From contig NW_015173696.1 of NCBI RefSeq assembly GCF_001447785.1, forward strand, positions 322,103 to 386,102: a DNA stretch of 64,000 bases, in the 5' to 3' direction. A program made the position numbers and the translations under genes. Under the pieces are notes generated by a model. That model did not search any database. It worked only from the letters and a program-made list of their open reading frames with translations, and was not told where the DNA came from. This stretch comes from Gekko japonicus (Eukaryota). Positions 8,184 to 57,017 of this stretch are shown piece by piece (within the stretch, counting starts at the first letter, position 1; each line of letters opens with the position of its first letter).

Positions 8184-9492
8184 GCTGGAGTGGCCGCGGG
8201 GGGGTCTGGAGTCGGGCGGCCGCTGGCGGGGGACGCAGTCGCCCGGGCCGAGATTGGGGGGGCAAGGCGGGCGACAGAAGGCCGATGCCTCCGTCGCCCG
8301 GCCCTCTACAGAATCCACCCCCCAAACCTCCAGGTATTTCCCTCCTTAGAGCTGGCAACCCTACATTCCCCTCAGTGCCTGTTGGTAGGCAACTAAGCTT
8401 GGTCCTGTCACCTACTTTGGCCTTTGGGAGAAAACACATTGGGGCCAATCCTGATAGGGTTGCCAACTCCAGATGGGAAATTCCTGGAGACTTGAGGGAT
8501 GGAGCCTGAAGAGGGTGAGGTTTGAGGAGGGGTGGGACCTCAGACAGGTACACTGCCATAGATTCCACCCTCCAAACCAGTCAGTCCCACATAGGGAACC
8601 ATTGTTGCCAATCTCCAGGTGAGGGCTGGAGAGCACTCAGTATTACAACTGCTCTGCAGAAGGGAGGGCAGAAGTCAGCTGAAGTCAAAGGGGCAGATAA
8701 TGGTAGGTTGATGGCTAGCTGGGAAGGAGATGGGGTTGCCAACTACATGCTGACAAATTCCTGGGGATTTGAGGGGTGGAGCCTGGAGAGGGTGGGATTT
8801 GCAGAGGGGTGGGACCTCAGACAGGTAGAATGCCATAGACTCCATCCTCCAAACCAGCCATTTTGTCCAGGGTAACAATTGTTGCCAATCTCCAGGTGAG
8901 GGCTACAGATTACTTACAATTACAACGGCTCTTCAGGTAGCAGAGATCAGTTCCTCTGGAGAAAACAGTGGACTCTGTCATTATACCCTGCTGAGGTCAC
9001 CACAGCAAATTGACACTGTTTGCCCAAAGCCAGAGCACTGCCCCAGAGCCTCTTTCTAGATCCCGTTGTATTGCTTTCACAACGGCCTTTACTGCTAGTA
9101 AATAAATAATACAATAAATGGTGTCACCCAGAAGTGACATTATCATGTCAGAGATGTCAGGGGCAATGCTCCAGTTTTTGGCTAAAACTCTATGGTAAAA
9201 TTGGCTTCAAACCATAGAGTTTTGTCCACAAACCAGAGTGTTGCCCCACTGATGTCCCCAACGTGATGATGTCACTTCTGGGTGACATCATCATGTCAGG
9301 GCCTGCACTTCTGGTTTTACTGGAATTCACCCAGGAAGATCAACTGGAGGCAGGATTTTCCACTGCTGGCTAGCTGGCTGGTGGCGGGCAAGAGCCCAGC
9401 AAAAGTGGGGGTTCCCCTGCCCCCACTGGGAACCCTACTGAGTGCTTTAATAACCAAAAGCAACTAACACAGATGGATAAAAGAGCAGACAA

Positions 9493-10253
9493 AATAACCA
9501 AAAGCAACTAACACAGGTGGATAAAAGAGCAGACAAAACAGACAGAGCCATCAAGAGAGTTGAAACAAAGACCAAAGATATTGAACAAAAACTGGGGGAA
9601 GTGGAAAAAGAAAGACTCTCAGATAAAGGCTAATTGCTGCAACTCCAAATGGAAAGATCAATGTATGTACTACACTTTCAAGGTGTTCCTGAGCAAAAAG
9701 GAGAAAATTTAAAAGTAATTTTAAGGGAACTATTAGCACCAATGACAGATCTTAAGCAAGAGACCCTGCAAAATGATATGGACTTGGCTTACCGAACCTA
9801 TCCAGATGTTATAAAGAAAAACAAACTGCCTGGAGAAATATATGTGAAATTCTCTAAGAGATCTACCAGAGACAATGTTTTGAAAGCCACATCTGGAAAA
9901 GTTCTGAAGGTTAAAGATGAAGAAGTTAAAATTTTAAAGGACATTCCATTCGAGATGCGGAAGCGAAGGCAGCAATACAAGGTTTTAACCTTCTTCCTCC
10001 ACAACAATTCAATCACTTATAGATGGATTTTTCCAGAGGGACTTGTATTCAACTATAAAGATATGAAGAATAAAATTGACTCTGTACAAAAAGCCAAAGA
10101 TTTTTTGAAACAACAACAAAGCCCGAGTAAAGATGAGAAAAAACCTGTGGACAATATTGAAGAAGAGGGAACCAGTGATGGAGGAACCGAAGACACCTCA
10201 AGTAGCTCTAGCAGTACCCCAGAAACCTCAGACTCGGAGAAGGGGGCAGCTGC
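9493..10253 (+). pseudogene. L1-clade ORF1p remnant (coiled coil, RRM, CTD)
   Basis: In-frame heptad-like segment, one stop at 9631-9633, then LHFQGVPEQKGENL...LPGEIYVKFS...VKILKDIPFEMRKRRQQY...ITYRWIFPEGLVF, typical of L1 ORF1p. Confidence 0.85.
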
Positions 10254-11035
10254 AGTTAGACTACTGTAATGCTCTCTACATGGGGCTGCCTTTGGGGCAG
10301 ATCTGGAAGCTGCAGCTAGTGCAGAATGCGGCGGCCAGGTTGATGATGGGTCTTCCCAAGTGGGAGAACATCCAGCATGGACTGAAAGTGCTGCACTCGC
10401 TGCCAATAGCATACCAAATCCACTTCAAAGTGCTGGTACTTACTTTTAAAGCCCTACATGGCCAGGGTCCGACTTACCTGAGGGACCGCCTTTCCCCACA
10501 TATACCCCCAAGAGCACTTCGGTCTGAGGCACAACATCGGCTGGTGGTTCCAGGCCCCCAGGAGGCAAGGCTCGCCATGACTAGGGCCAGATCCTTTTCA
10601 GTGGCAACCCCACCTGGTGGAATGAGCTCCCAGAGGAGATCAGGGCCCTGTGGGACCTTATGCAGTTCCGCAGGGCCTGTAAGACGGAGCTCTTCCGCCA
10701 GGCTTTCACATAGGGGCTGCCACTACCACCGCTACCAATGCGGTGGACAACATCAGGGTTAAGGATGGCCCGGGAAGATCTGCCACAATTTCTGCATGAC
10801 TGATACCACTGGATTTACCTGGTTGGGATAGGCTATAGGTTAACATCATCCCTGGAGAACTGTCTGTTTACCATCTGGCATGTATCCAGAGACCATCTTG
10901 TTTTTAAATTGAGTACAACTGTTATTAATGTTTTTAATGTTTTTATCTGTTTTATACGGGCTTTGCCCCTTGTAAGTCGCCCTGAACTCGCTCTGTGGGG
11001 AGGGCGGGGTAAAAATCTAACTAAATAAATAAAAT
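10254..11035 (+). mobile_element. L2 LINE 3' fragment
   Basis: LDYCNALYMGLP...LQLVQNAAARL...LHSLPI...FKVLVLTFKALHG..P.YL motif, tail tgtaagtcgccctga...(taaa)n. Confidence 0.9.
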
Positions 11036-12079
11036 ACCTAAAATGAATCTGAAGTCCAAGAAGAAGAAACGTATAAGATAAATGGATATTTCAACCGCAT
11101 ATGTGATTATAAAACACCAGAGACTAGTATTAAGATTAAGGTAATGTTAACCAGAATTTTGATAAATTGATCTCTTTCTTATTATTGTAGGATTCTTATA
11201 TATACATTGTAACATTTAGATCACGATCCTTGTCTTAGCTTTTGTTTTAGATATAGTGTTTACCCCCTGTTCCCTTCCCTTTAGGATGTAGGTGATAAAA
11301 TGCAATATAAAAGTTATTTAAAAATAGCCAATAATGAAGAAAAGTAAAATAGTTCTATTGTAAGGTTCCCCCCCACCAACCCGTCCTGGTCAGCTGAATT
11401 TGACAGACGGGACAGGGACAGCTTCAGGAAAGTGATGCAATAATGTACATGCATAACACATCTGCAATTTAGAACAGTTCTGGGGGTTCAGTTAACAAAC
11501 AAGCATTTTTTCAAGTGATGATGTAGCTTGTAATTGGTGATCATATTACAATTCAAACAGAGCAGTGTTTGCCCATCACTCTTCTTACTGGATAATTTGC
11601 ATGAACAAAATCAGTTCAAGGATACATTAGCATGATGAAAAATACAACAGAGAGTGTGTTGGTTCTGAAGTCAGTGGGCTTAAAAAGCTGTCATTCTTGC
11701 ACAGCAAGTCTAGGTAAGGCTCAGAGCTAGTTCTGAAGACCAGGTAAGGAAATACAGTCAATGAATTTTTCATACAGCGACAGATTGGATAAATATACAA
11801 ACAAATGACTGTACTACAAAACAAGGTACCACAGAAGGTACTACATTTGAGATTCCTTCCATCATCTCTTAATCTCTTACCACATGAGCACTTTTTCCAG
11901 TTCTCTCTTGCTTCTTCTTCCACAAACACAGGCAGTCTGATAGCTTGACAACTATTTATTAACTCTGCCTATCTTGCCATTTGCTTGGGGACAGCGGGCA
12001 AGCTCCCACCCCAGGGCTGGTGGAGTTCTTCACTCCAGCAGGAGCAAAAAGCATGGCCAGGTAGCAATGTCACATGACA

Positions 12080-12649
12080 TCTATATATCTAATAGCGAAA
12101 GGTGCCCCCTGCGTGCGGATACCTAAATTCGCGCATCGGGGGCACCTGGGGGGGAGGGAGATTTTTGTGCACACTTGGGGCATTCCCCAGGTGTGCACAA
12201 AAATCTAAAAACCTGAAAAAAATATTGGGGGGATACTTAAATCCCCCCAAAAGTGACAGAGCGTCCCCTGCACATGTGCAGGGGATGCTCTGCGAACTCC
12301 CTCGCCGCCGCCGCTTGGGGGGGGGGAAGAGAGCAGCGAGGCTCGAGCGGCAAGCCACTCGGCCCTCGCTTCGGAGCTGGGGGGGAAGAGCAGCGCCAGC
12401 GAGGCCCCAGCGGCAAGCAGCGAGGCCCCAGCGGCAAGCCGCTCGGGCCTCGCTTCAGAGCCGGGGGGGAGAAAGAGCAGCTTCGAAGCCGGGGGGGAAG
12501 GGAAGGGGGGAGATCGAGCGGGGGGGTGGAGGAGACGAGGGAGGAACCGGCGCGATGGGGGGAAACTTACCTCCTCCTCCTGCTTCCTCCTCTGCCTCCT
12601 GTGTGGAGGTCCCTCCCCCCCCACGAGTATCGCGGGTCCCGCCCCCTTG
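12080..12649 (+). mobile_element. Non-autonomous Helitron-like element, copy 1 (570 bp)
   Basis: 5' TCTATATATCTAATAG, subterminal hairpin cccacga-gta-tcgcggg (12620-12636), 3' CTTG. Inserted between A and T with no TSD; removing it restores the host repeat motif tgaca|tcacttct. Confidence 0.85.
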
Positions 12650-14017
12650 TCACTTCTAATTTGTACCCAGAAGTGACATCATGACACTCTAAGAATTTGC
12701 CCATCACTGTGGTTGGAGATGTACCAATTCCTAGATGATTGCAATGTTTCTTCAGGGTACAAACTGGCAGAGATGCTGTGACATTGCACCCCAGCTCCCG
12801 AACACACTGCTGGATCCAAACACTATAAAGTACAAGTACCTGAATTTTATGTCTGGATTATTTATCATTTCAATTTCTTATTTATTCTGTGTGGCATATC
12901 ACACAGTCTCCTTTTAATTCCCTATTTTAGAAATGTTTTACTGGAGGTCAATTGGATTTTCAATCTTGTGAAAGGTTACGAACTAATTTTCTTTTGTGAA
13001 TTTATTTGTGATCTCTTTGTGAATAATTTATTCAATAGATGAGAGAAGGCTTCATGAATGAATTATTCACAACATATTATTGGGTTATCTATAATGTTGG
13101 CTTGAGATTTTTTTAAAAAAATTACATAATAATTTATTTTCCCCAAATTATTACTACAATTAATCCATGCAGCTCTGGAGAAGTGTTTTATTTATTTCAT
13201 CCATAGTACATTAGTTATTTAACATAGGGTTTTGGGTTTGGGGTTTTTTTTGGAAATGTTGCAGGGTCAAATTATCTGCTTGATGTTCATGTTAGACAAA
13301 ATGTTTTGGCTTTACTTTTATATGTAAATAAATATTACATTTAGTTTGTGGCTGCACATGTATAATTATCTACAGATTTATGGAATGATGACATTGGGTG
13401 ATACTCCCTGCAATATTATGTCTGTGAGGCATCAGAATGCACATTATATGAAGCAAGAAAGAATTATCTTCACCAGTGTTTTGAAATAGAAGCAATTGAT
13501 GAATCCTGGTTGTAGAATGTAGATGAGTTGAGCAACCAGGTGTTATTTTCCTAATGGTTGCCAGTCACATCTTTTCTCTACTTCAAGGAGTCTCAAAACC
13601 TGATTTAAATAATAATAAAAAAGATCTACAGGTGTTCCTAGTCTGTACAACATAGATATATATTCTAGTCCCTAATTCTGCTTTCTGTAAAGCAAATATG
13701 ACATAAATTTAATATCAAAAAGTAAATGTCTAACATAATGTCCCCAAATATTCATTGTAATATTAGTTCTATGAGTGGTACACAGGGAGTCCGACTGTTA
13801 CAGAGTCCGTCATCAAAGGGGAAACATGTTTCTGTAGAATTTCCTGAGATAAATTCATTTTCCAGAGCTGCTACTAGCTATGGAAGTGTGTGTGTGTGGG
13901 GAAGACCTGTACTGCACCTATCTTTCCCTCCTGTATGCTAATAGCATTGCCGGGGGGGGGGGGTTCTACATGAAAAATAGGTTTGGGAGGAAGGGTTAAA
14001 TTCTCTCTCCCAAAAGC

Positions 14018-14175
14018 AGAGTTGTCAGCTGGCCTGGAGAAAAATGCCCTGTACCTTTAATAGAAGTATGGAAATTGACAACTGACTTTTGTCATGGCAT
14101 GGAGGTAAACAACATCCCATTAAGCCTCTATTTTAAAAGACAGGGAATTTTTCTCCAGGCTGGCTGCCAATTGTA
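14018..14175. mobile_element. Palindromic MITE (Blackjack-like)
   Basis: Inverted arms gcctggagaaaaatgccctgt / acagggaatttttctccaggc. Confidence 0.55.
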
Positions 14176-14320
14176 TGACCCTAATCCCAACTGGGTCCCC
14201 ATCCATGGCTGTTTTTTTAATTGTTAAAAAAAATGTCAGGAGATACAATCATGGATATCCTTGTGTAACAGGAAATTTGGCCCTTACACTGTGACATGAG
14301 TGCACAAACTCACATTGTTG

Positions 14321-15173
14321 TTTGTTTGTTTTGGCCCCCCGGAGGGGATTTTTTGTTGCTTTTTTAACTAGACCAAAACTACAAAGAAATAAGGGAAGGA
14401 AACTACAATTAAGGAGAAAGTAAAGATAACCACTACTAACTAAAACCCTAAAAGAAGGACTTAGTCAGACATGCTAAAATATCTTTTAACACTTAGATTT
14501 AACTGTTAGAGAGAAACACCAGAGCATCCCATTATTAAAAACCATATTTTCAAAGGCACAATTCAGAGTCCTTCAGCCTTCATTTTTTCTTTTCTTGTCT
14601 TTTCCTCAGTTTATATGGACTTTTAGGGGCAGCAACCCTCTCCAGAAGACCCCAAGTCCAGGTCGTCACTGGACTTACTATCCTTCTCCTCTTTGTCCAC
14701 CTCCTCTGGCTTGCCCAACTGGATTTTCAAAAAGTCCCATGCTTTGGAAACAGAGTCCATCTTTTCTTTTTAATCCTGAAGTTTGAAGGTTACACCCTCT
14801 GGAAATAACCACTTGTAGCTAATTGCATTAAAATGTCAATTACTCTCTAATCCGACTCACAGTTCATAAACGGTCTTATGACCTTGCTGTAGCTCCGTTT
14901 AAACCACTCAATCTCCAGTGCTTGTCCCGGTCAGCGTCACTAGTTCCATATGGACACACAGCAGGAGGACCGTCAGGATGGAGAAGCACCTTGACTCCCC
15001 AGCATCGTGCTGGCAAAGAGGCCACTTCAAAAGTCCCATGGCTAGGAGCCTTTCAACCAGGCTCCGAGGGGGTAGTGAGACAACGCCCCCCTCCTTTCTG
15101 CTGGTACGCAGATTTCATCACCGGGAGGTCCAGGAGATGAGTCTGCTCAGCGTGTCGCCATAAACTGGAAGCC
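14321..15173 (-). mobile_element. Internally deleted ORF1-only L1 derivative (HAL1-like), full 5' end
   Basis: TSD ctcacattgttg (14309-14320 / 15180-15191). Minus-strand start GGGCTTCCAGTTTATGGCG. GC-rich 5' UTR fused to the ORF1 C-terminus ISYKWLFPEGVTF..MDSVSKAWDFLK..VAAPKSPYKLRKKTRK..*, then a short tail. Confidence 0.75.
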
Positions 15174-15689
15174 CACAGCCTCACATTGTTGAAATGAGAG
15201 TCTCTCTTTTCAAAATTTGGGGTATACATGACATTGTACAATCCATACTACATAATGTACACTAGCACTGTGTAACAGCACTGAATACAAAGCCTCCAAA
15301 AGATTTTGTATAGGTTTCCAAGGAGGACAGAAAAGATAATCAAGGGTCTGGTGGCTCACTGGGAAGAAATGAAATGATCTAGATACATGTAGAATGGAAA
15401 GAGAAAAAATATAAGAGGGTGAATGAAATATACGGAGGGTTATTACATACCACTGGACTAGGTCTAATGGACTTAACCTATGTATGAATAAATTTGGGTT
15501 GAATATTAGAATAAATGTGGTTTCACAATAAAACTTGGGGGCAGGGGATAACTCTCCACTGGAGGTTCACTAGGCATCCTTGAGTTTGGATTTCCTGCAC
15601 TGAGAAGTTTTGGTTTGACAGCCTCTTTCAAGTCTAAGATTATTTTATTGTTCAAATGCTTCAGGTACTGCTATTAAAACAATCCCCGT

Positions 15690-17888
15690 TGAAGAAAGAC
15701 TTGAGAGAGAAAGACATTTATAAATTGAGTAATATACTGATAAATGGGCATTTAGGTACACAACAGCAACTGGAGCTAAAACACAAGATAAAACTTTCAT
15801 GGCTCCAATATTATCAGCTTCACCATATGGTTCAAGAGATTACCAAATCAACACAGTTAGACAGACAGAGAAAAACTCAGAGTCCAAGAATCCTATAACT
15901 ATTTAATATCGGCAATTCAGTCATAAACTTTGGCTACAGCCCTCATCACTTCAACTTGCCTGGCATAAGGACTGTGGAACAACTTTTACTGATGTGCAAT
16001 GGGTTAATATATGGGACTGTTCTCTTTTTAATACTAAATCTTTGAACTCAAAACTCCAGAACTTTGAAATCTTGTCTCAATGGTACCTAACACCTAGGCG
16101 CCTATATCAGTGCAAATTTACATCTAATCCTACTTGTTGGAAGGGCTGTGGTCAAAATGGTAAATTCATTCATTGCTGGTGTGAATGTCCTAGAATTTTT
16201 AATTTCTGGAAAGTTATACTTACTGAAGTGACGAAGATAATAGGGCATACTCTTCCCAATTTACCAGCATCTGTCTTACTTAATTTTTGGCTGGATTTAC
16301 CATTAACGGAGGGGAAAGCTGAATTAGCCTCTTTTTTACTCATAGCAGCAAAACTCATGGTAGCTCAGAATTGGAAATTGAACAAACTCCCTACATTAAA
16401 ACAATGGGTCTCTAAAATATGGGCTATAGCTGTTGCTGACAAAATTGCGACTCAATTGATTGTAACTGAAACACCTATGAAAAGTAATCTCTTTATTGAA
16501 AAATTGTTTTCTTTTTTGAGTATGTTTCATCAAACGCAAAAGAATTTTATAAGTTACCCAAAGAATGCATGATTTTTGTATTTTATTAGATTGGATATTG
16601 TCTTATTTGTTCCTATATTAACCATGATAGTGGGTGAGCTATAGTATGAAAATTTACTGTGTTAGCCAAATTGCTCTAATAAAAGAAACAACCGGTACAG
16701 TTATTATTATCGGGATTCTTCCGTCTATGTTTACGGAGGATGGCACTGTTTCCGAGGTTCCCAATGAAAGGCTGAGGCGAACTTCCTTAATAATAATAAT
16801 AGTTTACTGACACACTTCACTTCAAAAACATACAACAATCACAGCACACAAGAACTAAAAAATTAAGATAGAATAATACAACACAGTTATGGTGGTTGAT
16901 GCTCTGGGTTATAATTACCTAGCTGCAACTGCGTGGCTCCAAACTTCCAGCGAAGGGGTAAGGATGGGGAGAAAATTGGGAAAGAAAGGCGAATGGACTC
17001 AGACCAGCTAAGACCACGTGCCAAAGAAACTCTAGCTGCTCAGTTCTAGAGTATAAAGAAGGATGGGTAGGATCTGGGATAGCAAGCTGGGCTTGAGAGG
17101 AAAAGCAGGTTTTATAGAGGGCATCGTTAGAAAGCAATGGGGGGTTCCAGGGTCCAGAGCGAGAGGTATGAGAGCAAGAACAAGAGAGCAAGAACTTAAG
17201 AGAGTGGACGTAAGAGAGTGAACTGTGGGTGCGTTCTTGATTATATCAAAGGGGTCTAGAGGAGGAGCTGGATCCAGAGGACCTCCCCTATGACACTGTG
17301 TTCTGTCATAGCCAAGAAGTTAGCGATTGGCTACTGTATTTTTCTGGGTGGGCTAAGAAACTGGAGGGCAATTTGAGATCTGGTTGCTAACTCAATCAAG
17401 ACACCTGGGCTAGGGGTATTAGTATGCAGATGGTTGACTCATGTCCATGCGGCCAGGCTGAATACCGGGTCTTTGTGAGTACGTGCAGCTTCGTTGGTGC
17501 GAGGGGGAGGGGGGGCCCTGGAGGTAGGTGACCATGCTGCTGGTTTGAAATGGCGTCTTGTGCTTTCTGTGACCATGTGCTTTGTTCTATGGCGTGCACT
17601 AGACACGGGAACACCTTAGGAATAACAACCACTGCAGGAACACAGTCTTTGGTATGTATCCTCATCGGGCGCTCACAGCATGTCAGTTTCAGGCACCGTC
17701 CGTCGTTGGCCCAGTTCATCAGGTACAGTATAACACTGTCCATAAAAACACCATAGCAGGCTTGCGGGCTTACAACTGTTCTTATACTTATTGTTCTGTT
17801 ACTGTTGTTATTATTGTTCTGGTTGTTGTTATCTTTCTATGGATGAGCTATTGTTCTTTTGTTATTTTAACAATAAATATAAAAAAAT
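15690..17888 (+). mobile_element. L1 3' fragment (ORF2 C-terminus and 3' UTR), interrupted by a solo LTR
   Basis: ORF 15994-16572 WYLTPRRL..CWKGC...FIHCWCECPRIFNFWK (L1 C-terminal Cys/His knuckle). The tail resumes after 17778 and ends AATAAA + A-run. 5' boundary approximate. Confidence 0.85.
16660..17774 (-). mobile_element. Solo LTR, 1115 bp
   Basis: TGTTAGCC...GGCTTACA ends, perfect 4-bp TSD actg (16656-16659 / 17775-17778). Splits the L1 3' UTR. Orientation inferred from minus-strand TATAAA/AGTAAA. Confidence 0.8.
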
Positions 17889-18019: not shown

Positions 18020-18902
18020 ATGGAATTACATGTCATAGTTGTATATGTAGGGGTGGTTTGTTAGATTAGCATGCAAAATAGTGAAAATATTTTTAAAAAC
18101 AGATCAAAAGAATGACACACTCGGTTTCTGGTTATCATCTGTTTCAGTTCAACTGGGGGGACAGGTAATAAATGTGTTAGAACTGGAGATTGATGTGTCC
18201 TAATTTGTGAGAATCCAGTCCTTAGACCCCCATCCATCTTCTTTCTAGCATGGAGGAGAACTTTACAGCATCTTGGCTGTGCAGAGTATTTTCCGTGCCC
18301 CCCAAAAAAGAGAACTACATTTAAATCTACCATTCCAAATTACATTACATATTCAATTACATTCTTAATTGTTAAGAGCAGTAGTAACATTCTGTTTCAC
18401 TAAAACATGGAGTTAACTGGCAGAATCCTTTTCCTGGGGTACAGTGTTATGTGAGAGATCAACAAGATATTGCATTGCATTACAATCACTATTATAATAT
18501 ACTATTTCCAAAAAGAAAAAAGAAAGAAAGAAAAGAAAAATATCAAAATATAGGGGATGTATAACCCTACTTGGTGAGAATACATATGTGAAGATTGAAT
18601 GACTTAGCATATATAATGAGATAAGAAACCAATATCCCTGTTTAGTCCTGCCGGGGTATTTGTTCTGAGTGTTGTAATAACTTGTAATTCAGCTATGTCC
18701 CTTTCCATTCTGTTCCTGAAGTTCCTTTGCAATAAAACAGCTACTTTGAGGTCAGCCACTGAATGCCATGGAAGGTTGAAGTGTCCCCCTACAGGTTTCT
18801 CAGTCTTGTGATTCCTGATGTCAGATTTGTGTTTATTTATCCTTTGGCATAGGGTTTGTCCTGTTTGTCCTGTGTAGAGAGCCAAAAGGCAATGGTGGCA
18901 TT

Positions 18903-19899
18903 TTGAGAAACCTGTATAAGGGTCAAGAAGTGACAGTTAGAACCGGATATAGAACAACTGATTGGTTTCGCATAGGAAAAGGAGTACGACAAGGATGTAT
19001 ATTTTCACCTTGCTTATTTAATATATATGCAGAGTACATCATGCGAAATGCTGGCCTGGATGAATCACAAGCGGGAATTAAGATTGCTGGGGAAAAGATC
19101 AACAACCTCAGATATGCAGATGATACCACTCTAATGGCTGAAAGTGAAAAGGATCTAAAGAGCCTCTTGCTCAGAGTAAAAGAGGAAAGCGCAAAAGTGG
19201 GCTTGAAGCTCAACATCAAAAAAACTAAGATCATGGCATCCGGCCCCATCACTCCTTGGCAAATAGAAGGGGAAGTCGTGGAAGTAGTGACAGACTTCAC
19301 GTTCCTGGGATCCCAGATCACCACAGACTGTGACTGCAGCCATGAAATTAAAAGACGCCTGCTCCTTGGGAGGAAAGCAATGGCGAACCTAAACAGCATG
19401 ATAAAAAGTAGAGACATCACCCTGCCAACAAAAATACGCATGGTCCAAGCAATGGTATTCCCAGTAGTCATGTATGGCTGTGAGAGTTGGACTATAAGGA
19501 AGGCCGAGCGCCGAAGAATAGATTCTTTTGAACTATGGTGCTGGAGAAGACGTGCTGGAGTCCCTTGGACTGCAAGAAGAACAAATCAGTCAATCCTAAA
19601 AGAAATCAACCCTGATTGTTCCCTGGAAGGCCAGATAATGAAACTGAAGCTCAAATACTTTGGCCACCAAATGAGAAGGGAGCACTCACTGGAGAAGACC
19701 CTGATGCTGGGAAAGATTGAAGGTCAAAGAAGACAGGGATGGCAAAGGATGAGATGGTTAGACAGTGTCATAGATGCAATGAACATGAAATTGAGCGAAC
19801 TTCAGAGGACGGCAGAAGACAGGAAGGCCTGGCATGATCTGGTCCATGGGGTCGCAAAGAGTCGGACTCGACTGTGCGACTGAACAACAATAACAACAA
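18903..19899 (+). mobile_element. RTE-BovB LINE, 5'-truncated, RT C-terminal ORF open
   Basis: 326-aa stop-free ORF: GVRQGCIFSPCLFN...NNLRYADDTTLMAESE...MYGCESWT...LKYFGH...LEKTLMLGKIEG. 3' end ggggtcgcaaagagtcggactcgac + (caa)n. Confidence 0.95.
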
Positions 19900-30298: not shown

Positions 30299-31474
30299 CA
30301 CGTAAGTACCTGTGCTGCTGCATTCTGGACAAGCTGTAATTTCTGGATCAGCGCCCCCCCCTCCACAAACAGCATCTAAGGCTGCTTAATCCTATAAAGA
30401 GTAAAGTTCATAAGGCTGGGTTGTCAGATATGATACAGAGATAATTCCTACAGCTCCATCCAAGTTAAGCAATTGCAAGTCTCATTAATTTCGACATGAG
30501 AAAGTATATTTTAGTTTGGTCCCACTGCAATCAATAGAACTTCAAGGTGTTGAAATCAGCCGGAATTGTACTCACTATCTCCTCTTTAGGGCATGAAGAT
30601 ATTTATTTATACCTTAGCTATGGTAATTCTAGTACATGAGCTATAGTGTTTGGCCTGTTGCTACACAAAAATATACATTATTCTCAGGTTTTAAAATCAA
30701 TAAACAAAGGTTGGCCCTTCATGCCAAATGACTTCCTGCCAACTTCACAACCACAATAAATTTAATTTTATATTAGAATTTAGTAATAGCTAATTTATAT
30801 GAAAGACTATTTTCCTTCCCCAAACCATCTGTTTTTAATCTGTTTGTGCAGAAATGTATGTTAAAAGATACCATCATTTGCTTTTCTCCCTCCTTCCTTT
30901 TGTGCACATTAGATATTTTCAGGGTTTATGAAAACACTTTTAGCATACTGCTTGTTTTAGTGCTACTGATAAAGTTGATAAATTAGGGGAGATTTTTAAA
31001 GAACACACTCACTTTCTATCTTAACCAAAACTTGGCATCTAATACTATTGAGCATTTAAGTGACCAATAGTATTAGGATATGTCAAATCACTCTGAGTTC
31101 TGTACCAAGAATAGTATACAAGTGGTATTTCTAAAGTATACAGTAAAAGATTAATTAGAAATGGGTTAATGTCTTTCTAAAGAACTTGTAAAAGGCCTTT
31201 AGAGGCTTGTGTTTCACTGGAATTAATGTGGATCTTGGAATTTTTGACTTGTATACCTACCTAGTCCAATGTACATGGCAGATAACAACTGCATTGTGTG
31301 AACAGGAACAAAACAGACACATTTTCCTCAGTGGCACATACATGTGCATTTTCCCTGATAACAAAGGCAACTGATAAGTTCCCGCTTCTATGAGACTCCA
31401 TGTGTGCAATGGAGCCCCATGCAGCTCTGAACTGAGTTACTTCTGTTATTGCTATACAGAATCATACTATTGCA

Positions 31475-32014
31475 TCTATATATCTAATAGTAAACTTGCC
31501 CCCGGAGTGCGGATCACTAAATCAGCGCTCCGGGGGCAGCTGGAGGGCCGGGGGAGGTTTGTGCACACGTGGGCCAGTCCCCACGTGTGCACAAAAATAA
31601 AAAAAGTTAAAAAAAAATTCGGGGGGATGTTTAAATCCCCCCAAAAGTGCAAGAGCGTCTCCTGCACGTGTGCAGGAGACGCTCTGCGAACGCTGCCGCC
31701 TCCTCCTCCTCCTCCTCGGAGCCGGCAGGCAGGCAGGCTGGCCGGGTGGGGAGGGAGGGAGGGCAGGGAAGACAGGCCTCGCTGCCGCCGCTGCCTCCTC
31801 CCCGGAGCCGGCAGGCAGGCAGGCAGGGAGGGCGGGAGGGCGAAGACAGGCCTCGCTGCCGCCTCCTCCTCCTCCCTGGAGCCGGCAGGCAGGCAGGCAG
31901 GGTGGGCGGGGGGGACACCGGCCTCGCCACCACCACCGCCGCGGGGAGATCAAGGGGGGGATGGAGGAGACGGAGCTCTTCTCCCCCCCACGAGTATCGC
32001 AGGTCCCCCTCTTG
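31475..32014 (+). mobile_element. Non-autonomous Helitron-like element, copy 2 (540 bp)
   Basis: Identical 16-nt 5' end TCTATATATCTAATAG, hairpin remnant cccacgagtatcgcagg, 3' CTTG, site ttgcA|Tttatc with no TSD. Confidence 0.85.
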
Positions 32015-33085: not shown

Positions 33086-34271
33086 GTGGAGGTGCTTGTG
33101 GCCCTATGTGATCTTTTCTTTCATTTCCTTATTTTCTATGATATCTTTCTGAGTTACGTAGAGAAGAACCAATTGCATCAAAATTGTCTTGTTCAGATGT
33201 TTTTGTAGGATAACTCATCTAATTTGTGTATTTATCTTTTTTGCAGAAAGTAATGGCTGTAAACTCAAAAAGCATATAGATTTGAGCCAAACCAGCTACA
33301 TTTGGTGGGTGCTTCCTGTTCTGTAACTATTCAAATAACTTGTTTACTCATTGTCAACAGTTCTTCCATCAGCAAATATTACTTATGTCCTTAGTTCCTT
33401 CTTTAGTATCAGAAGCATGATTCTAAAGACAGTCAGTGTGGTACAGTGGTGAGTGTCAGACTAAAATTGGGGAAACTCAAATTCAAATCCCCACTTTACC
33501 CTGAAGCTAATTGGATGATTTTGGTCCAGTCAAGACCTTGAGTCTTGACACACTCAAATTACGAACGTGGTAGGGAATGCCCAGAGAAGCATCTCTGCCT
33601 TGAAAATATTTTTTTGTTTGTTTATATACTCAAGGGGTCAGCCATTTGTGTTTTTGTGGCCAAGATTTTTACAGATTTGTTATATGGCTCAGTTATGTGC
33701 ATATATTAACTACACAACTTTAGGAATTATTCAGATTAAATTTTTGAGAGCCATATTTGTGGTCTCTCACTGTGTTATGAAGCCTTTTGTCTGGAAACAG
33801 GTTTAATGACTGGCTGAAGCTTGTTTTGGTTCTCCTGTGGGTCTTGCACCTTTGACATTAATAGACACCTTTCGGGCATGATGGAAAAGGCCCGTTCAGA
33901 GAAATTATGATGTATTGGATATTCTCCTAGCAGTAGCCCTTGGTCCTTAAAAGCTAAATCTGAAATTAACCAAAAGATTTGGGATATTGAACTTCAACAC
34001 AATTTAAGTCTTGTCACAAAATACCATCTTCTGAGGAATAAGAAATTTGTGCTGGCAAACCATTTGGCTAATGTATTGATTCCCAAACACAGGAAAGCTT
34101 TCACTCTGGTCTCTTACAATGATCTTCCCTCTGCATGTTTAGAAGGGAGGACCATGGTGTACCATTCCTTGAACACATATGCCCTCATGCAAGTTGGGAA
34201 ATGGAAATTTTGGGCATGTTCTGCTGCAGTGCCCCTTCTACAACGATCTTAGATATGCTTTCATCACTTCT

Positions 34272-35251
34272 TTTTTATTATTTAAGGTTTTTATTTGTTT
34301 TGTATCAATTCAAATAACATATATATCGTATACATTTTGAATAACATCAAACTGTTACACATTTAAAGAACATTGAAAGTCTGAAAAAATTACAACTACA
34401 ACTAATATTAACTGAGTAAGGATGAGTAAAGAATTCACTGGAGTCTCATAGGACTCATATATGTCGATTATATAAATTCTTATAGGTAATTTCAAACTAA
34501 TAATTCCATTATCCTGTGTGAGGGAATAGAGGGAAAGACATTCTGCTAGTAGTAACAAATTCGTAGAAACTTTTACAGCCATCTCTGTAATTGCTGCCAG
34601 GAGGAAGGCAGGAAATCCTCTGAAGCCAGAAATTCTAAAATAGGATTCCACTTTTCCATTATAGGTTTGTCTACCAGTTTCAGGGCTATTCTGTTCAATT
34701 TGCTTGTTACTGAATTCATGAGAAATTGGTCCCACAGCTTTTGGTACCATAGCTTCAGTGTTGGCGGTTGTGGATCTTTCCAACATGTCGCAATCGCTGT
34801 ACGAGCAGCATATATCATAACATCCAAGGTCTGTTTATATTTGTGTGTTTCAATTTGGGGTGGCCAATGTTTTAGGAAGAGATTTTCAGGATTTAGTGGG
34901 ATTTCTAGACCTATGATTTTGAGTATCATTAGTTTTATTTCTTCCTAAAATTTGGCTATTTTCTCACATTCCCACCAGGAATGGGCAAATGTACCTATTT
35001 TGTTGCATTGTTTCCAACGTTGGCGAGATTGTTGGGTACATGTGAGAGAGACATTGGGGGGTCAAGTACCATCTCGTTAAAATCTTAAAATCTTGCAGCT
35101 CTAGTGGGATAGAATTTGGATAAGAATTCTTGGTCTCCCATAATTCCTTCCAAAAGTTTTCATCCAGCTGTGTCTTGCAATCTTTTTTCCATAATGCTTG
35201 ATAGGGAATTACTTTTGGAGAATCAACAGTTCAATAATTGGTAAGTTGCAG
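34272..35251 (-). mobile_element. L1 3' fragment
   Basis: Minus-strand TRWYLTP...GTFAHSWWECEKIAKF...AARTAIATCWKDPQPPT...KWNPI. 10-bp TSD catcacttct (34262-34271 / 35252-35261) next to a T-run. Confidence 0.85.
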
Positions 35252-36019
35252 CATCACTTCTGTCCTTCAAAAAATCTCCTGGAAGATCAGAGGAATGGTA
35301 TACCTCCCATCTTCTTGTGTAGAGCCACTATCATGAGTAGAGCCACTAGAGTCTGTGCAGCTGCTAGAATTTACCATTGTTTAATGTTGATTTAACACAA
35401 TTCATCTGCTATTTGTATACGCAATGGCTTTCTGTAACTATTTTTGCTAATGTATGTTTTATACTGCTGCTATATGGCTGTAATAAATAATTGCTTGAAT
35501 GACTGAGCCAATCACACACACTTAGCCTACCCTATAGAGTTATTGTGAAGATAACATATGGGATATATACTCAGCCCCTGGGTTCTTTGAAGGAAGAGCA
35601 GGATAAAATGAAATAGATTCCCAAACAAAATTCCAGCTCCTCCAAATCTGTCTGCTTCAATTTTCAGCTTTATTATAGCACTAGGAATAAGGCCCCATGT
35701 GGGAAAGAAATACAATGAGTTCTAGAAGGAAGCTCCAGGTGAGTGTCTCGGCTGTGGCTGGTGGGGTGGCAGAGGGAATCGGAAAATAGAAGGAGGCAAG
35801 CCATGTTTATTTCCTTCTGCTTAGCTATAAGGCAGGGCTGTCTTGAGTCATTTTGCTGCCCCAAGTGGGTAGTATGGGAGGACAGTCTCGTGGTGACAGG
35901 TATGGTTCCCTCCACTCCTGACTTATGTTGCTTTGGGGTTATTCAGTGACAGCTAAGGTAGAAAAGCACCTCTGGGAGAGGGAACTGGAGACTACTCAGA
36001 AGAAGTTGAAAGGTGAAAC

Positions 36020-47667: not shown

Positions 47668-49200
47668 GGAGCTCAAGTGGTTAAGATGCTGAACTGAAGG
47701 CTGTGGAAGGCCGGTAGTTCAGCAGTTCGAGACCCAAGCAGTTCGAGACAGAGAGTGAGTATAAATGGGCAGTTCTCTCAGTGGAGGGGGGTAAGCAGTG
47801 GGGTACCGCAGGGATCAGTACTTGGTCCACTGCTTTTTAACTTGTTCATTAATGATTTGGAGTTGGGAGTAAGCAGTGAAGTGGCTAAATTTGCGGATGA
47901 TACGAAGTTGTTCAGGGTGGTGAAAACCAGTGAGGATTGTGAGGCACTCCAAAGGGATCTGTCAAAGATGGGCAAGTGGGCGTCAACATGGCAAATGGGG
48001 TTCAATGTGGCCAAGTGCAAGGTGATGCACATTGGAGCCAAAAATCCTAAATATAAATACACATTGATGGGGTCTGAACTGGCAGAGACAGATCAAGAGA
48101 GAGATCTTGGAGTTGTAGTAGATAACTCACTGAAAATGTCAAGACAGTGTGTGACTGCAATAAAGAAGGCCAATGCTATGCTGGGGATTATTAGGAAGGG
48201 TATTGTAAACAGATCAGCCAATATCATAATGCCGCTATATAAATCAATGGTGCGACCTCATCTGGAATACTGTGTGCAATTCTGGTCACCACACCTTAAA
48301 AAGGATATTATAGCTTTGGAAAAAGTGCAGAAAAGAGCAACTCGAATGATAAAAGGGTTGGAACACTTTCCCTATGAGGAAAGGTTAAAGCGCTTAGGGC
48401 TCTTTAGCTTGGAGAAAAGACGACTGAGGGGTGACATGATCGAGGTTTATAAGATTATGCATGGGAAAGAGCAGGTAGAGAAAGAGGTACTTTTCTCCCT
48501 TTCTCACAATACAAGAACCCGTGGGCACTCCATGAAATTGCTGAGCGGTCGGGTTAGAACGGATAAAAGGAAGTACTTCTTCACCCAAAGAGTGATTAAC
48601 ACTTGGAATTCACTGCCACAGGAAGTGGTGGCAGCTACAAGCATGGACGGCTTCAAAAGGGAATTAGATAAGCATATGGAGCAGAGGTCCATCAGTGGCT
48701 ATTAGCCACAAGGTATAGATAGGGACTCTGGGGCAAGTGATGCTCTGTCATCTTGGTGCTTGGGGGGGGGTCAACAGTGGGAGGGCTTCTAATGTCCTGG
48801 CCCCACTGGTGGACCTCCTGATGGCACTGGTATTTCTGGCCACTGTGTGACACAGAGTGTTGGACTGGATGGGCCTTTGGCCTGATCCAACATTGGCATC
48901 TCTTATGTTCTTATGTTCTTATGTTCAAGTTGCCGCATGACGGAGTGAGCTCCCGTCTCTATTTCCAGCTCCTGCCAACCTAGCAGTTCGAAAGCAAGAA
49001 ATTGCAAGTAGATGAATAGGTACCACTTCAGTGGGAAGGTAACAGCATTCTGTGCGCCTTGGTGTTTAGTTATGCCGGCCACATGACCACGGAAATGTCT
49101 TCGGACAGCGTTGGCTCTTTGGCTTTTAAACGGAGATGAACACCGCAACCCTAGAGGCGGATTTGACTGGGTTTCGAGTAAGGGAACCTTTACCTTTTAA
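47668..49200 (+). mobile_element. Sauria SINE split by a CR1 insertion
   Basis: The two halves (47668-~47749, 48926-49200) join into a near copy of 50637-50987. (ACCTTT)n tail, TSD aagcaagcttag (47656-47667 / 49201-49212). Confidence 0.9.
47750..48925 (+). mobile_element. Young CR1 LINE, 5'-truncated; RT ORF 47755-48705 stop-free
   Basis: SGVPQGSVLGPLLFNLFINDL...KFADDTKL...LEYCVQFWSP...RLRGDMIEVYKI...TRGH; octamer tail (TCTTATGT)3. Confidence 0.95.
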
Positions 49201-50636
49201 AAGCAAGCTTAGAATTGCAGACTGCAGCTTTTTATTACCAAAGCTTATTACTAATAATAAAAGAAGTATAAAATTGAGAGAGAAGCATGTGGTATTTATA
49301 AGTGCTTGGAGGTGGTATTACCAAGTTTGTTGATACTGTTGATTGCATGGTATCATGTATGTTCATGGTTCTGTGTTGCCTGCTCTCCCATTCAGTCCAA
49401 TTTTTTTCAAGAATAATGATTGCTTAATTTCATTTGTTCATTTAGTCATTCGATTTATACCCCACCCTCCCCGCCAAGGCAGGCTCAGGGCTTTGTGGCA
49501 TCAGAGAAAACTTGAAATAGAAACAGTTAAGATGGTTCAGGTCATGAGTGCTAGGTGACCTGTTTTAATGTTTCTGGCTGTCTGATGATAAATAGACTGA
49601 TGATGATGACGACAATGATGATGGTGCTGCCGCTGCCAAACAACAACATCAAAACACTGGGCTCTGAATTTTCAAAGCTGACATCAAACATACCCTTGTT
49701 AAGTAAAATACAATGGAGTACTATCAAAGAGATAAAAAGATATTATGAACATAATTAAATGGAGGCACCACAGTAAAGGTAATTAACTTGTGGGTAGTCC
49801 CAGTTTTAAGATATTGATTGGCAACACGATAATGGGAATTAACATGTGGGCAGTCCCAGTTCTAAGATATTGATTGGAAACAAGCATTGGATTACAAAAC
49901 TTGTAAGATAATTATGATGCATTGCCTACTACACCCTAGAAGTGATCTTGATCATCTTTTCTTACCAAGAAAACTAGGTGGAAGATGTCTCCTGAAAGTT
50001 AAGCAAGCAGCTGAAGAAGAAAAACAAGCACTGAATGACTACACCAAGAAAAGCAAAGAGAAGCTTCCAGTTGAAGTACACAAGGCAGACTTAAGGTTAC
50101 AGAAACGAAAGAAGATTGCAAAAAATTGCAATTAAAACTCACTTTGACAACTGGAAACAAAAGCACTTTCATGGGCAGTATTTTAAAGACATAGAGAACA
50201 AAGTTGATAATGGAAACACCTGCAAGTGGCTCCAAAATAGGCATTTGAAGAAAGAAACGGAAGGGCTCATTCTAGCTGCAAAACAGCAGGCACTCGAAAT
50301 AAATAGTATGAAAGCCAAGATTCCAAAGACCAGTGATGATAGCAAATGTTGACTTTGCAAGACAAAGGATGATAGCAGACCACATGGTCAGTGCCTGCAG
50401 TAAAATTGCTCAAACTGACTATAAAGAACATCATGATAGAGTTGCAGGTATGTTGCACTGGAATCTTTGCAAGAAGTATGGCTTAACATCAACCAGGAAT
50501 TCATGGGAGCAGAAATCAGACAAGATCATACAGAATGATGAAACAAAGATTCTGTGGAGTCTCTGATTACAAAAAGATAAAAACACACAATTGTAGGGGG
50601 AAAATGAGGAATAGGGCTTAAGTAATTGATATTGCA

Positions 50637-50987
50637 GGAGCTGCGGTGGCTCAAGTGGTTAAGACGCTGAACTGCAGGCTGTGGAAGGTCGGTAGTTCAG
50701 CAGTTCGAGACCCGAGTTGCCGCATGACGGAGTGAGCTCCCGTCTCTAGTTCCAGCTCCTGCCAACCTAGTAGTTCGAAAGCAAGAAATTGCAAGTAGAT
50801 AAATAGGGACCACTTTGGTGGGAAGGTAACAGCATTCCGTGCGCCTTGGTGTTTAGTTATGCCGGCCACATGACCACGGAAACGTCTTCGGACAGCGCTG
50901 GCTCTTCGGCTTGGAAACGGAGATGAGCACCGCAACCCTAGAGTCGGACTCGCCTGGCTTTCGAGCAAGGGAACCTTTACCTTTACC
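50637..50987 (+). mobile_element. Sauria SINE, full length
   Basis: tRNA head ggtggctcaagtggtt...gttcgagaccc, (ACCTTT)n tail, perfect 14-bp TSD taattgatattgca (50623-50636 / 50988-51001). Confidence 0.92.
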
Positions 50988-51126
50988 TAATTGATATTGC
51001 AATCCCAGGCGATAGGAGAATAGAAAAGAAAAAACAGGAGAAGATCACAAAATACCAAGACCTATGAGCAAAGTTAGAGTGCCTCTTGGAGAAGAACATG
51101 ACCATCATGCCAGTTGTTATTGGAGC

Positions 51127-51295
51127 CAGAGTTGTTGTTGTTTTTTTAAAGAGCTGCCAGAAGACTCAAGAGGGAAATGAAGTTTTCAATATGTATACCG
51201 AAAACTCATGAACTTTTAAACATTTTTAAAAGAATTTTGTTGTAGAGGTTCTGGAACTCCATTCTGGTGCATTCCCCCAGAAAAAAAAAAACCTG
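51127..51295. mobile_element. hAT MITE (CAGGG-T-run type) nested in R4
   Basis: CAG...CTG ends with T/A runs; perfect 8-bp TSD attggagc. Confidence 0.75.
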
Positions 51296-53722
51296 ATTGG
51301 AGCCCTTGGAGCAGTGCCTAGAAGTCTTAAGAAACACCTGGACATTCTAGGCATTTAGCAAATAACACCAGCTCAGCTCCAGAAGACAGTGTTGCTTAGA
51401 ACAGCATGAATCCTGCAAAGATAAACCTGAAATTCCCAAAAACTTGGCCAGATCCCGAATTGCAGAATATCCAGCTGTGACAATTAACGATGATGATGAT
51501 AATAATAATTTTGTTTTATATTAATATCATTAAAATCACAAAAAGTACAATTGTAAAAATGGTTGTACCTGATACAGTTTAATTTTGCATTTTTAAATAG
51601 TAAGTTAAATATTCACTTATGCATTAGTTAATTGTGTATGTAGATTTCATGACTAAAATAAACATTGTGTTGTTATTATTCTTATTGTTTACATATTTAC
51701 CCTTTCACCAGAATAACTACTATGAAAGTGTAGGGGAGGTGCAACTGTATGTTCTTCTCTCAAAAGAAAATTATCTAGTTACAGCTCTGTTGCCCCAAGA
51801 AGACCTTTCTTTTTCTCCTGTTCAGCAAAATTAACTTTTCTTGAATTACCATGTGGAAGCCTCTGTACCTGCTTTGCCATGCAGTCTTATTTCTTCAGTT
51901 GCCATGGTAAATAGGGGTGCTTTCTCCAATGTGTCAGAAATTGCCTATGAGGGTTGGGTTCCCTTGGGGAGTGTACAACATATAAGAGTTTCATTCCACT
52001 TGGAATTAAAAAAAAAACAAGCAGAAAACAGTTTCCAAATGAAAATGATAGAGAGACTTCCGGTCTGTGGCTCGACGATGGTAGTCGCACTCCCCTACCT
52101 CAATCAATAAAGCTACCCTGTCTTCAGGGGATTAAAAAAAAGAAAGAAAGAAAATGATAGAGAGAAAACATTTAATTGAATAATCCAAATGGATAGCTTT
52201 AATAATATAAGAAAACAAATTTATTTTAAAAGGAAAAAAAAGAAACTAAAGGGAAAATAAATGGGAAGGGGGGGTGACATCCCCACCATGAATCATCTTG
52301 GTGCATTGTTAGAACAGCTGGGAAACAGAAGCGATAGCACGGGTTGGTCAGTAGCTGGTAGGCTTTACTGCTTTGCCTAGAAGGATTGTAGGACAATGTT
52401 CTGAAATTTTAATTTAATTTACTTTTTTAAGTTTCACAGTATTGGCTCCATGGCCAGACAAAGGATGGGCAGGAGGCAAGCGGCGAGCCCCTTTTCCCCT
52501 GTGACAGCCCAGCCCCAGCCACATTAGATCCCAGTGGTTGGTCCATTTGAGGGAAGAAGAAAATCCAATTTTCCTGCTGCTTGCACCCTGCCCCCCCCAG
52601 CATCCGGCCATCTCTCCTCCCCTGATGGTGCCGCAAAAGTTGGGCCATGGCTAAGTCGGGCCCTCCCCACTTTTCAACTTCAAAAGTACAAACCTTCCTA
52701 CACAAACTGAATATTGTCCACACAAACTAAAATCTGTAAAATACCTTAAGTTTAGATCAGAGATTAATTTGCATATGTTTTGATTGGCATGAAGAACACT
52801 TGGCTCAGTGATAACTGGGTGTAGGGGGGAATTAAATAATTACAACGGACATGTGGACTGGCTAGTACTGCCGGCCTACCTACTATGCGGAGAACAAGCT
52901 AGAGCTTATGTGCCTCTACTGCTTTTCCCATCTGCAAAGCCTCCAGCTGCCTATCAAAGGCAGGGCAAGCCATAGTGTCCCCCTCCCCACACTGCTTTGC
53001 TTTCTTTTCAGAAACAGACAAAAAAAAAAACCCACATACTTCAGCATACAAAACCTATAGCTGTATATAGCCAAAAATAAAGTGTTCCCAAACCCAGTGA
53101 GATAGTGTAATGGTTAGTAGAAAGTGAAAATATTCTGAACAGGATTTTTTAAAAATAAAAATATCTATCCTTATATTATATTCACCAAATTAAAACTGAA
53201 ATAATTGTTGTGAGTTTTCTTTTGACTGAGCCCTAAAAACCCACTTAATTTATAATGTTCATCTTTCTATGTAGCAATGCCTCATTTTAAGCTTTTAGTC
53301 TGAGGTATCACGCTGTAAGTATTCTTGTGCATAGGGCTCTCCCAGATGTTTAAGGAATGTAGTCATTCGCCTTTTAAAAAACACACTAATTGTTGCTTTG
53401 TTTAAGGAGGATGGTTAAAAGTTAAGTGGTTTGGAGGATGTAACTGAGAGGCCATGTTAAATTAGGGCTAGCCAGGGAATGTGCTCAGACCATAACTCAT
53501 GTCTACATTTCTAATCACTGACCCTCAACTTCCTTGAGGACATGCCCCATAAATTATGACTATGTGAGACATTAAAATGTTGCATAATTTTGTCCTGTTT
53601 GTTTAAAATGAAAATTGATTACATTTTCTTTTGACCGTCTTGAATCTTATATATCTATTCAGATCTCTCCCTGTGTAACAAAGTTTAAGTCCAGTGGCAC
53701 CTTTAAATCCAACAAAGTTTTA

Positions 53723-54412: not shown

Positions 54413-54650
54413 CAGTTATTTACACTTAGCATTCCACCTGGGTTAGATTTCATCCCCATTTGGTCCCTGCATCTGTTAAAACATCTTCATTATGTTGTAT
54501 GCTTATTTGCTGCTCACCCTCTACCTTTCCTTTTGAATAAAGTTTGTTGGTCAAAGGTGCCACTGGACTCAAACTTTGTTCAACTGCCTCAGACCAACAC
54601 GGCTACCCACCTGGTTCTCCCTGTGTGTTAATCAACGTACAGTTGCTTCT

Positions 54651-56801: not shown

Positions 56802-57017
56802 CAACGTACAGTTGCTTCTATGCATTTGCTTGGAACAAACTTTCAAGAGTGCAGAAAGTTTAAAAAAAGATAACATGCTAACAAGCTCATTACTTTTTAA
56901 TTACCATTCAAATTTAGGAATGAGATAAATAGGACTTGATTCAAACCCTAACAGATGGACCTCTCGCCATCAGCCTCCATCCTTCAGCTATCAATCTCTG
57001 CTCTTTCCTATCCAAAG

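What the first reader, a model, noticed from the sequence alone, without database searches (positions are those of the whole stretch)
9449..11325. ORF1-only (HAL1-like) L1 derivative
Seen: L1 ORF1p homology. After removing the nested L2, the ORF ends in an acidic/Ser linker and basic tail (GAAA..IPKMNLKSKKKKRIR*), followed by only ~240 nt before an A-rich end, with no ORF2. Known: mammalian HAL1 elements encode ORF1 only and rely on L1 ORF2p in trans. Inference: an independently derived squamate HAL1-type family, supported by a second diverged member at 14321-15173.
Basis: partly seen in the sequence, partly recalled or inferred. Interest (0 to 1): 0.7.

Follow-up and report, generated by a model that had tools for sequence, protein, structure and literature searches.

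The report
ORF2-less L1 retroelement fossils in reptile
Two dead copies of a jumping gene kept part or most of their RNA-binding gene but have no copying-enzyme gene, which suggests that reptiles, like mammals, evolved half-length L1 elements that borrow the enzyme from full-length relatives.

Summary
Observation largely confirmed. 9449-11325 is a 5'-truncated, dead L1 ORF1 (profile E 6e-68; fold matches human ORF1p, E 1.7e-10), split by a 780-nt LINE. The ORF1 stop is followed by a 244-nt AT-rich tail and a weak A-rich end. No ORF2 was found in the next 3.2 kb. No convincing target-site duplication (TSD) flanks it.

The second copy (14321-15173, minus) moved as a unit: 18-bp TSD (16/18 match) and a lizard-L1 5' start. 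It keeps only the last ~85 ORF1 codons, so it is a deleted derivative, not an ORF1-coding member. The two are sister branches among 123 ORF1 rows, synonymous-saturated (pS 0.88, pN 0.25), and collinear across the ORF1 end and tail (p 0.004). Tail-only similarity is marginal (z 1.9). The acidic/basic C-terminus is not diagnostic.

Best reading (~0.6): an old ORF1-only, HAL1-type L1 lineage moved in trans by L1 ORF2p. Family status needs genome-wide copies, which these tools cannot fetch. Nine literature searches found no reptile HAL1; Repbase and Dfam were not checked. A third ORF2-less, TSD-flanked 2.15-kb L1-like element lies at 54651-56801.

The parts
9449..9536 (+). 44-bp tandem duplication at the 5'-truncated edge, in ORF1 coiled-coil coding sequence; shifts the frame
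   Evidence: 43/44 identical; translation
9493..10257 (+). L1 ORF1 remnant, 255 codons: end of coiled coil, RRM, CTD, acidic/Ser linker; one in-frame stop at 9631-9633
   Evidence: (E 6e-68); A-skew 0.32 and 0.4 stops per 100 codons
10258..11036 (+). Nested 5'-truncated LINE (L2-type by recalled C-terminal motifs; no Pfam hit), ends +/-2 nt, TAAA-type repeat at its 3' end
   Evidence: (similar pieces at 59408-59497 and 60563-60772)
11037..11081 (+). Last ORF1 codons (basic tail) and stop
11082..11325 (+). 244-nt AT-rich tail with pyrimidine runs, like an L1 3'UTR; weak A-rich end that may run to ~11355; no ORF2, no AATAAA, no demonstrable TSD
14321..15173 (-). Copy 2: complete 853-bp insertion of the sister lineage, internally deleted
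14836..15173 (-). Copy 2 5' part: starts with the lizard clade-1 L1 5' motif, 54% GC, CpG o/e 0.53 against 0.23 for the window; no ORF1 homology
14580..14835 (-). Copy 2 ORF1 C-terminal ~85 codons (CTD half, acidic linker, basic tail); one internal stop, one frameshift, terminal stop 14582-14580
   Evidence: (E 1.6e-10)
14321..14579 (-). Copy 2 tail: ~235 nt to the A-rich run, then ~25 nt and an AAAC-type end
15174..15191 (-). Copy 2 5' TSD, abutting the L1 5' motif
   Evidence: 16/18 with 14303-14320; 43 such pairs in 1.8e8 position pairs of the window
14303..14320 (-). Copy 2 3' TSD

Best explanation
Both elements are dead insertions of an old non-autonomous lineage derived from lizard clade-1-type L1, in which ORF1 is followed directly by a ~240-nt 3'UTR-like tail and ORF2 is gone. 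SHOWN: the structure; the lack of ORF2; L1-type insertion hallmarks on copy 2; sister relationship; purifying selection on the ORF1 CTD since the two lineages split. INFERRED: an intact master was transcribed from the L1 5'UTR promoter, made its own ORF1p, which coated its RNA in cis (and may have co-assembled with ORF1p of autonomous L1), and took ORF2p from autonomous L1s in trans at its A-rich 3' end for target-primed reverse transcription. Copy 1 is a 5'-truncated product, later hit by another LINE and a 44-bp duplication. Copy 2 is a further derivative that lost most of the 5'UTR and ORF1 by deletion or splicing before it was inserted.
For: Both ORF1-bearing pieces found in the window (2 of 2) end ~235-245 nt after the ORF1 stop with no ORF2. 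Because L1 copying starts at the 3' end (established), a copy of an autonomous L1 that reaches ORF1 should carry ORF2. Copy 2 has an 18-bp TSD at exactly its 5' motif and A-rich end, so it moved without ORF2. The copies are sisters among 123 rows (support 89; copy 2's best identity is to copy 1, 21/34, next best 19/34). Over 39 CTD codons pS is 0.88 and pN 0.25, with codon positions 1/2/3 identical at 27/30/15 of 39 (Fisher p 1e-7). The 3' pieces after the nested LINE are collinear (z 3.0, p 0.004; 5 and 3 of 4054 natural windows score as high). The tails (29% and 35% GC, 38-39% T) match the 3'UTRs of the two ORF2-bearing L1 ends in the window (27% GC, 38-42% T). They fall in the anole clade-1 3'UTR range (194-570 nt) and exceed its spacer range (0-110 nt) (PMC5381506). 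Lizard L1 is thought to move other RNAs in trans (PMC5322556 passages).
Against: Only two copies, neither intact. Tail-only similarity is marginal (z 1.9, p 0.04; 15 and 6 of 450 AT-rich windows score as well; last 70 nt p 0.11), and tail 1 is closer to the tail of element 3 (z 3.4). If the tails are not homologous, the selection on ORF1 may have acted in autonomous ancestors. Copy 1 has no TSD and no AATAAA. The tree uses 34 residues of copy 2, a FastTree support of 89, and a library that may lack this species' autonomous ORF1. The pN/pS segment came from a protein alignment, which favours low pN. The clade-1 assignment rests on the 5' motif and on relatives whose ORF1 runs straight into ORF2-like sequence; anole ORF1 was not aligned directly.
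Confidence: 0.6

Rival explanations
1. Non-coding bipartite derivatives: ORF2 was lost by internal deletion or splicing, once or twice, and the RNAs move like SINEs. ORF1 is a passenger, and its selection signal dates from autonomous ancestors.
For: Copy 2 moved with only ~85 ORF1 codons, so cis ORF1p is dispensable at least once. Element 3 (54651-56801) has L1-type ends, an exact 18-bp TSD and no detectable ORF1 or ORF2. Tail homology is weak.
Against: Copy 1 kept 270 codons of ORF1 with one stop. The ORF1-stop-to-tail junction has the same position and length in two synonymous-saturated lineages. Kojima 2018 (PMC5786205 passages) lists ORF-less bipartite derivatives only for the RTE, Ingi, Vingi and R2 clades.
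Confidence: 0.2
2. An autonomous L1 family with an unusually long AT-rich spacer that polyadenylates early. The copies are 3'-truncated ORF1-only transcripts of that family, moved in trans, with no separate non-autonomous lineage.
For: It explains the constant tail length and the weak poly(A) signal. Short AT-rich spacers exist in anole clade 1 (106 nt at 30.5% GC).
Against: Anole clade-1 spacers are at most 110 nt in 9 families; the long clade-2 spacers are G-rich, 40-50% GC. The tails look like the window's true 3'UTRs. It needs two rare events in 64 kb.
Confidence: 0.13
3. Copy 1 is an ordinary L1 that lost ORF2 after insertion, or it and the ORF2 piece at ~15300-16572 are the two ends of one L1; copy 2 is an unrelated accident.
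For: Copy 1 has no TSD. Large deletions are common in lizard LINEs (PMC3787681 passages). The ORF2 piece is on the same strand about 4.2 kb downstream.
Against: No ORF2 trace in 11082-14302. Stops jump from 0.4 to 3.4-5.6 per 100 codons and the A-skew is lost. The same junction occurs in the TSD-bounded sister copy.
Confidence: 0.07

Closest known systems
HAL1 (half-L1) of mammals
   Same: L1-derived; ORF1 followed by a short tail and A-rich end; no ORF2; TSD (copy 2); must use L1 ORF2p in trans. Definition taken from passages of PMC5322556 and PMC5753468, which also says HAL1s arose several times independently in mammals.
   Different: Reptile-type ORF1 (about 20% identical to human ORF1p) and a lizard clade-1 5' motif, so an independent origin. 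No intact copy and no copy number here. The primary paper (Bao and Jurka 2010) was not held and was not read.
Lizard clade-1 L1 (Anolis L1_AC1-15; PMC5381506)
   Same: 5' terminus close to GACTTCCGGTGN8ATGGCG, CpG-rich start, T/C-rich 3'UTR of similar length and GC.
   Different: Autonomous clade-1 elements have ORF2 overlapping ORF1 or within 110 nt of it, and a ~1.3-kb 5'UTR. Here ORF2 is absent and copy 2 keeps ~340 nt of 5'UTR.
HeT-A and Ag-Sponge (ORF1-only derivatives of Jockey and CR1 LINEs)
   Same: ORF1-present bipartite non-autonomous LINE design (PMC5786205 passage).
   Different: Different LINE clades and hosts; no telomeric context here.
SpIREs (spliced L1 retrocopies, PMC5860796; search listing only)
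   Same: Copy 2 joins 5'UTR to a downstream ORF1 segment, as a spliced L1 RNA would.
   Different: Splice sites cannot be tested without the parent sequence, and copy 2 also lacks ORF2.

Membership tests
HAL1-type non-autonomous L1 | Derived from L1 and carries L1 ORF1 | tested here: met
   (Transposase_22 in 22 of 90 aligned members, not the window copy itself)
HAL1-type non-autonomous L1 | No ORF2 between ORF1 and the 3' end | tested here: met
   positive controls
HAL1-type non-autonomous L1 | Poly(A) tail and TSD | tested here: inconclusive
   Copy 2: TSD 16/18 and A-rich end. Copy 1: weak A-rich end, TSD candidate at chance level.
HAL1-type non-autonomous L1 | ORF1 intact and selected within the ORF2-less lineage | tested here: inconclusive
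   pN 0.25 against pS 0.88 between copies, but both are broken and the timing relative to ORF2 loss depends on tail homology (z 1.9; ORF1 end plus tail z 3.0).
HAL1-type non-autonomous L1 | Multi-copy family with a constant structure | not testable with these tools
   No eukaryotic genome collection; two diverged copies in 64 kb only.
HAL1-type non-autonomous L1 | Mobilised by L1 ORF2p in trans | not testable with these tools
   Inferred from the TSD and the absence of ORF2; needs a trans-retrotransposition assay.
Mammalian HAL1 families (by descent) | ORF1 from the mammalian L1 lineage | tested here: not met
   About 20% identity to human ORF1p against 45% to the nearest library relative; lizard clade-1 5' motif on the sister copy.
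Autonomous lizard clade-1 L1 | ORF2 (endonuclease plus RT) overlapping or within 110 nt of ORF1 | tested here: not met
Autonomous lizard clade-1 L1 | 5' terminus GACTTCCGGTGN8ATGGCG | tested here: met
   Copy 2 start, degenerate match; copy 1 is 5'-truncated so not testable there.

The most novel reading that the evidence does not exclude
Squamate clade-1 L1 has produced a long-lived, diversified ORF1-only lineage, old enough to saturate synonymous sites while ORF1 stayed under selection, which in turn spawns non-coding derivatives. With the third ORF2-less element, three such insertions against two ORF2-bearing fragments in 64 kb would make L1 parasites about as common as their host L1s in this genome: an undescribed non-mammalian convergence on HAL1 and a system to test what cis-acting ORF1p does for a hitch-hiking RNA.
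Probability: 0.35. Interest if true: 0.65.

Novelty: new member of a known kind. Interest (0 to 1): 0.45.

Why it matters
The papers read here describe ORF1-only L1 derivatives from mammals only. A reptile case from a deeply separate L1 clade would show that the design arises convergently wherever L1 can act in trans. It would also bear on why ORF1 is kept: cis RNA coating or co-assembly with the helper's proteins. Practically, ORF2- or RT-based surveys of reptile L1 would miss such elements. The locus itself is a dead copy with no sign of a host function.

Tried and rejected
1) Pfam on the window ORF1 alone: no L1 family. The word-index protein search gave 0 of 235 candidates and, with an alignment, 5 of 8000; these gave no useful names or context.
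2) Acidic/Ser linker plus basic tail as a HAL1 marker: rejected. Of 153 relatives, 131 had a locatable CTD motif and 89 had tails of 25-130 aa; 36 of 89 were acidic/Ser-rich, 29 basic-ended, 15 both. P0008 has an acidic linker and runs into an endonuclease (Pfam Exo_endo_phos E 0.0012, below the cut-off). Three others (P0013, P0033, P0078) run into ORF2-like sequence by eye only.
3) A TSD for copy 1: chance level.
4) Tail as the start or end of ORF2: no hit with seven probes, one of which (P0139C) was not ORF2.
5) Copy 1 continuous with the ORF2 piece at ~15300-16572: rejected.
6) ORF1 homology upstream of 14836 in copy 2: shuffle level.
7) Element 3 as a third ORF1-only copy: not supported. 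Profile and frameshift-aware scores were at shuffle level. Two pairwise scores above 6 shuffles did not hold under composition-aware controls. Atlas and protein search were blank.
8) Rfam: 0 matches in the window.
9) Names and sources of the top relatives could not be looked up, so their hosts are unconfirmed.
10) Literature: searches showed no reptile HAL1. Anole L1 consensus sequences in the supplement are cut at 400 characters, so their 3'UTRs and junctions were not seen.

Full report
Setting. The window is a repeat-rich vertebrate sequence with RT-bearing LINE pieces at 18819-19880 and 47698-48702 (Pfam RVT_1) and two L1 ORF2 3' ends: 15907-16569 (human ORF2p E 2e-14) and ~34576-35200 (related to the first, E 2e-13). 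That the host is a squamate is inferred from the lizard-type L1 5' motif and from recalled repeat types (BovB-like, Sauria-SINE-like); no call names the organism.

Copy 1 is an L1 ORF1 fossil. The frame 9634-10266 has no Pfam L1 hit alone and only E 0.059 to human ORF1p. A full HMMER search found 324 relatives at E<=0.001 (best 3.5e-39, 45% identity). A profile of 90 sequences matches human ORF1p at E 6e-16, and 22 of the 90 carry Transposase_22. The predicted fold (pLDDT 96) matches the ORF1p RRM-CTD at E 1.7e-10. A profile without the window copy finds two significant ORF1 places in 64 kb: 9487-10173 (E 6e-68) and 14829-14584 (E 1.6e-10). Copy 1 starts inside the coiled coil, has a 44-bp duplication at its edge and one stop in 255 codons.

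The nested insertion is real. A same-strand LINE piece at ~10258-11036 interrupts the linker; its L2 label is from recalled motifs. Removing it restores ...GAAA(V/I)PKMNLKSKKKKRIR* in 2 of 3 registers tried. The piece after it aligns with the corresponding end of copy 2 (score 104, against 27 for the insert's own start; z 3.0, p 0.004; junction 67 nt p 0.007).

No ORF2 follows. Probes from ORF2 ends found nothing in either tail. The three + frames of 11082-14302 hit nothing relevant in Pfam or PDB. Stop density and A-skew change abruptly after ORF1. The 244-nt tail is 29% GC and 39% T with a 13-nt pyrimidine run, like the 3'UTRs of the window's ORF2-bearing L1s. In anole clade-1 L1 the spacer is 0-110 nt and the 3'UTR 194-570 nt (PMC5381506). 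Against: there is no AATAAA, the A-run is short, and the only TSD candidate is chance-level (24% of 1000 shuffles).

Copy 2 is the stronger witness but a different thing. It starts at 15173 with a degenerate lizard clade-1 5' motif and has 338 nt of CpG-rich sequence without ORF1 homology. It then carries the last ~85 ORF1 codons, a tail of ~235 nt to the A-run, and is flanked by an 18-bp TSD with 2 mismatches (43 such pairs in 1.8e8 position pairs). It therefore retrotransposed without ORF2 and without most of ORF1.

Relationship. Copies 1 and 2 are sisters among 123 rows (FastTree support 89; only 34 residues of copy 2; fragments under 130 columns left out). Their CTD DNA is 60% identical (75 of 126), with pS 0.88 and pN 0.25: old lineages with constrained ORF1, not one young family. 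The tails have the same length and position but align only marginally on their own (z 1.9; 15 of 450 AT-rich windows match tail 1 as well). The logic turns on this. If the stop-to-tail junction is inherited, the selection acted after ORF2 loss and the lineage is HAL1-like. If not, ORF1 may be a passenger. The acidic/basic C-terminus does not help, as it is common among relatives, including one running into an endonuclease.

Mechanism (inferred). A master with L1 promoter, ORF1 and 3'UTR makes ORF1p that binds its own RNA and recruits ORF2p from autonomous L1 at the A-rich end. Target-primed reverse transcription then gives TSD-flanked, often 5'-truncated copies. Probability about 0.6; non-coding bipartite derivatives 0.2; early polyadenylation in a long spacer 0.13; one-off deletion 0.07.

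Prior art. HAL1 is described as ORF1-only with poly(A) and TSDs, dependent on L1, and arisen several times in mammals (passages of PMC5322556, PMC5753468, PMC13756887). HeT-A and Ag-Sponge are analogues in other clades (PMC5786205 passages). For PMC5381506 I saw the abstract, passages, text parts 3, 5, 6 and cut supplement parts. For PMC5203782, PMC3787681, PMC12129022, PMC4494074 and PMC6050309 I saw term-search passages only, none describing ORF1-only reptile L1. PMC5860796 was seen as a listing only; Bao and Jurka 2010 was not available. Nine searches found no reptile HAL1, but Repbase and Dfam entries, where such families are usually deposited, could not be checked.

Verdict. A real ORF2-less L1 structure, probably a reptile counterpart of HAL1 by function and not by descent. 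Family status is unproven. New member of a known kind; interest 0.45.

Noticed in passing
window 54651-56801 (-): 2151-bp insertion with an exact 18-bp TSD (54633-54650 / 56802-56819), L1-type 5' start, CpG-rich first 350 nt, purine-rich body with a degenerate 86-codon acidic, coiled-coil-like frame (55998-56255), and an AATAAA/A-rich end resembling the 3' end of the L1 at 34270-34370 (p 0.0015, one of several comparisons) and tail 1 (z 3.4). No ORF1 or ORF2 homology detected. An unexplained L1-mobilised non-autonomous element.
   Followed up: partly
window ~15300-16690 (+): 5'-truncated L1 3' end; 15907-16569 matches the human ORF2p C-terminus (E 2e-14); short 3'UTR with AATAAA. The upstream limit is by eye only.
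   Followed up: partly
window 34270-35260 (-): Second L1 ORF2 3' end with a ~300-nt 3'UTR and AATAAA; ~30% aa identity to the first, so a different L1 family.
   Followed up: partly
window 9118-9301: Palindromic element with 46-nt and 37-nt inverted arms just upstream of copy 1; looks like a MITE.
   Followed up: no
window 12078-12640 and 31473-31940: Two copies of a GC-rich element, 82% identical over 220 nt, with internal tandem repeats.
   Followed up: no
window 57018-57210: 63-bp tandem repeat, 3.1 identical copies, ~200 nt from element 3.
   Followed up: no
window 48928-49197 and 50715-50984: Two 270-nt copies, 93% identical, Sauria-SINE-like by recall; the second interrupts another degenerate retroelement around 49800-51450.
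   Followed up: no
PMC5381506 supplement, anole clade-1 5'UTRs: By eye, several anole clade-1 5'UTRs have a splice-donor-like motif about 300-370 nt from the start, similar to the ~340 nt of 5'UTR kept by copy 2; hints at a spliced origin, untested.
   Followed up: no
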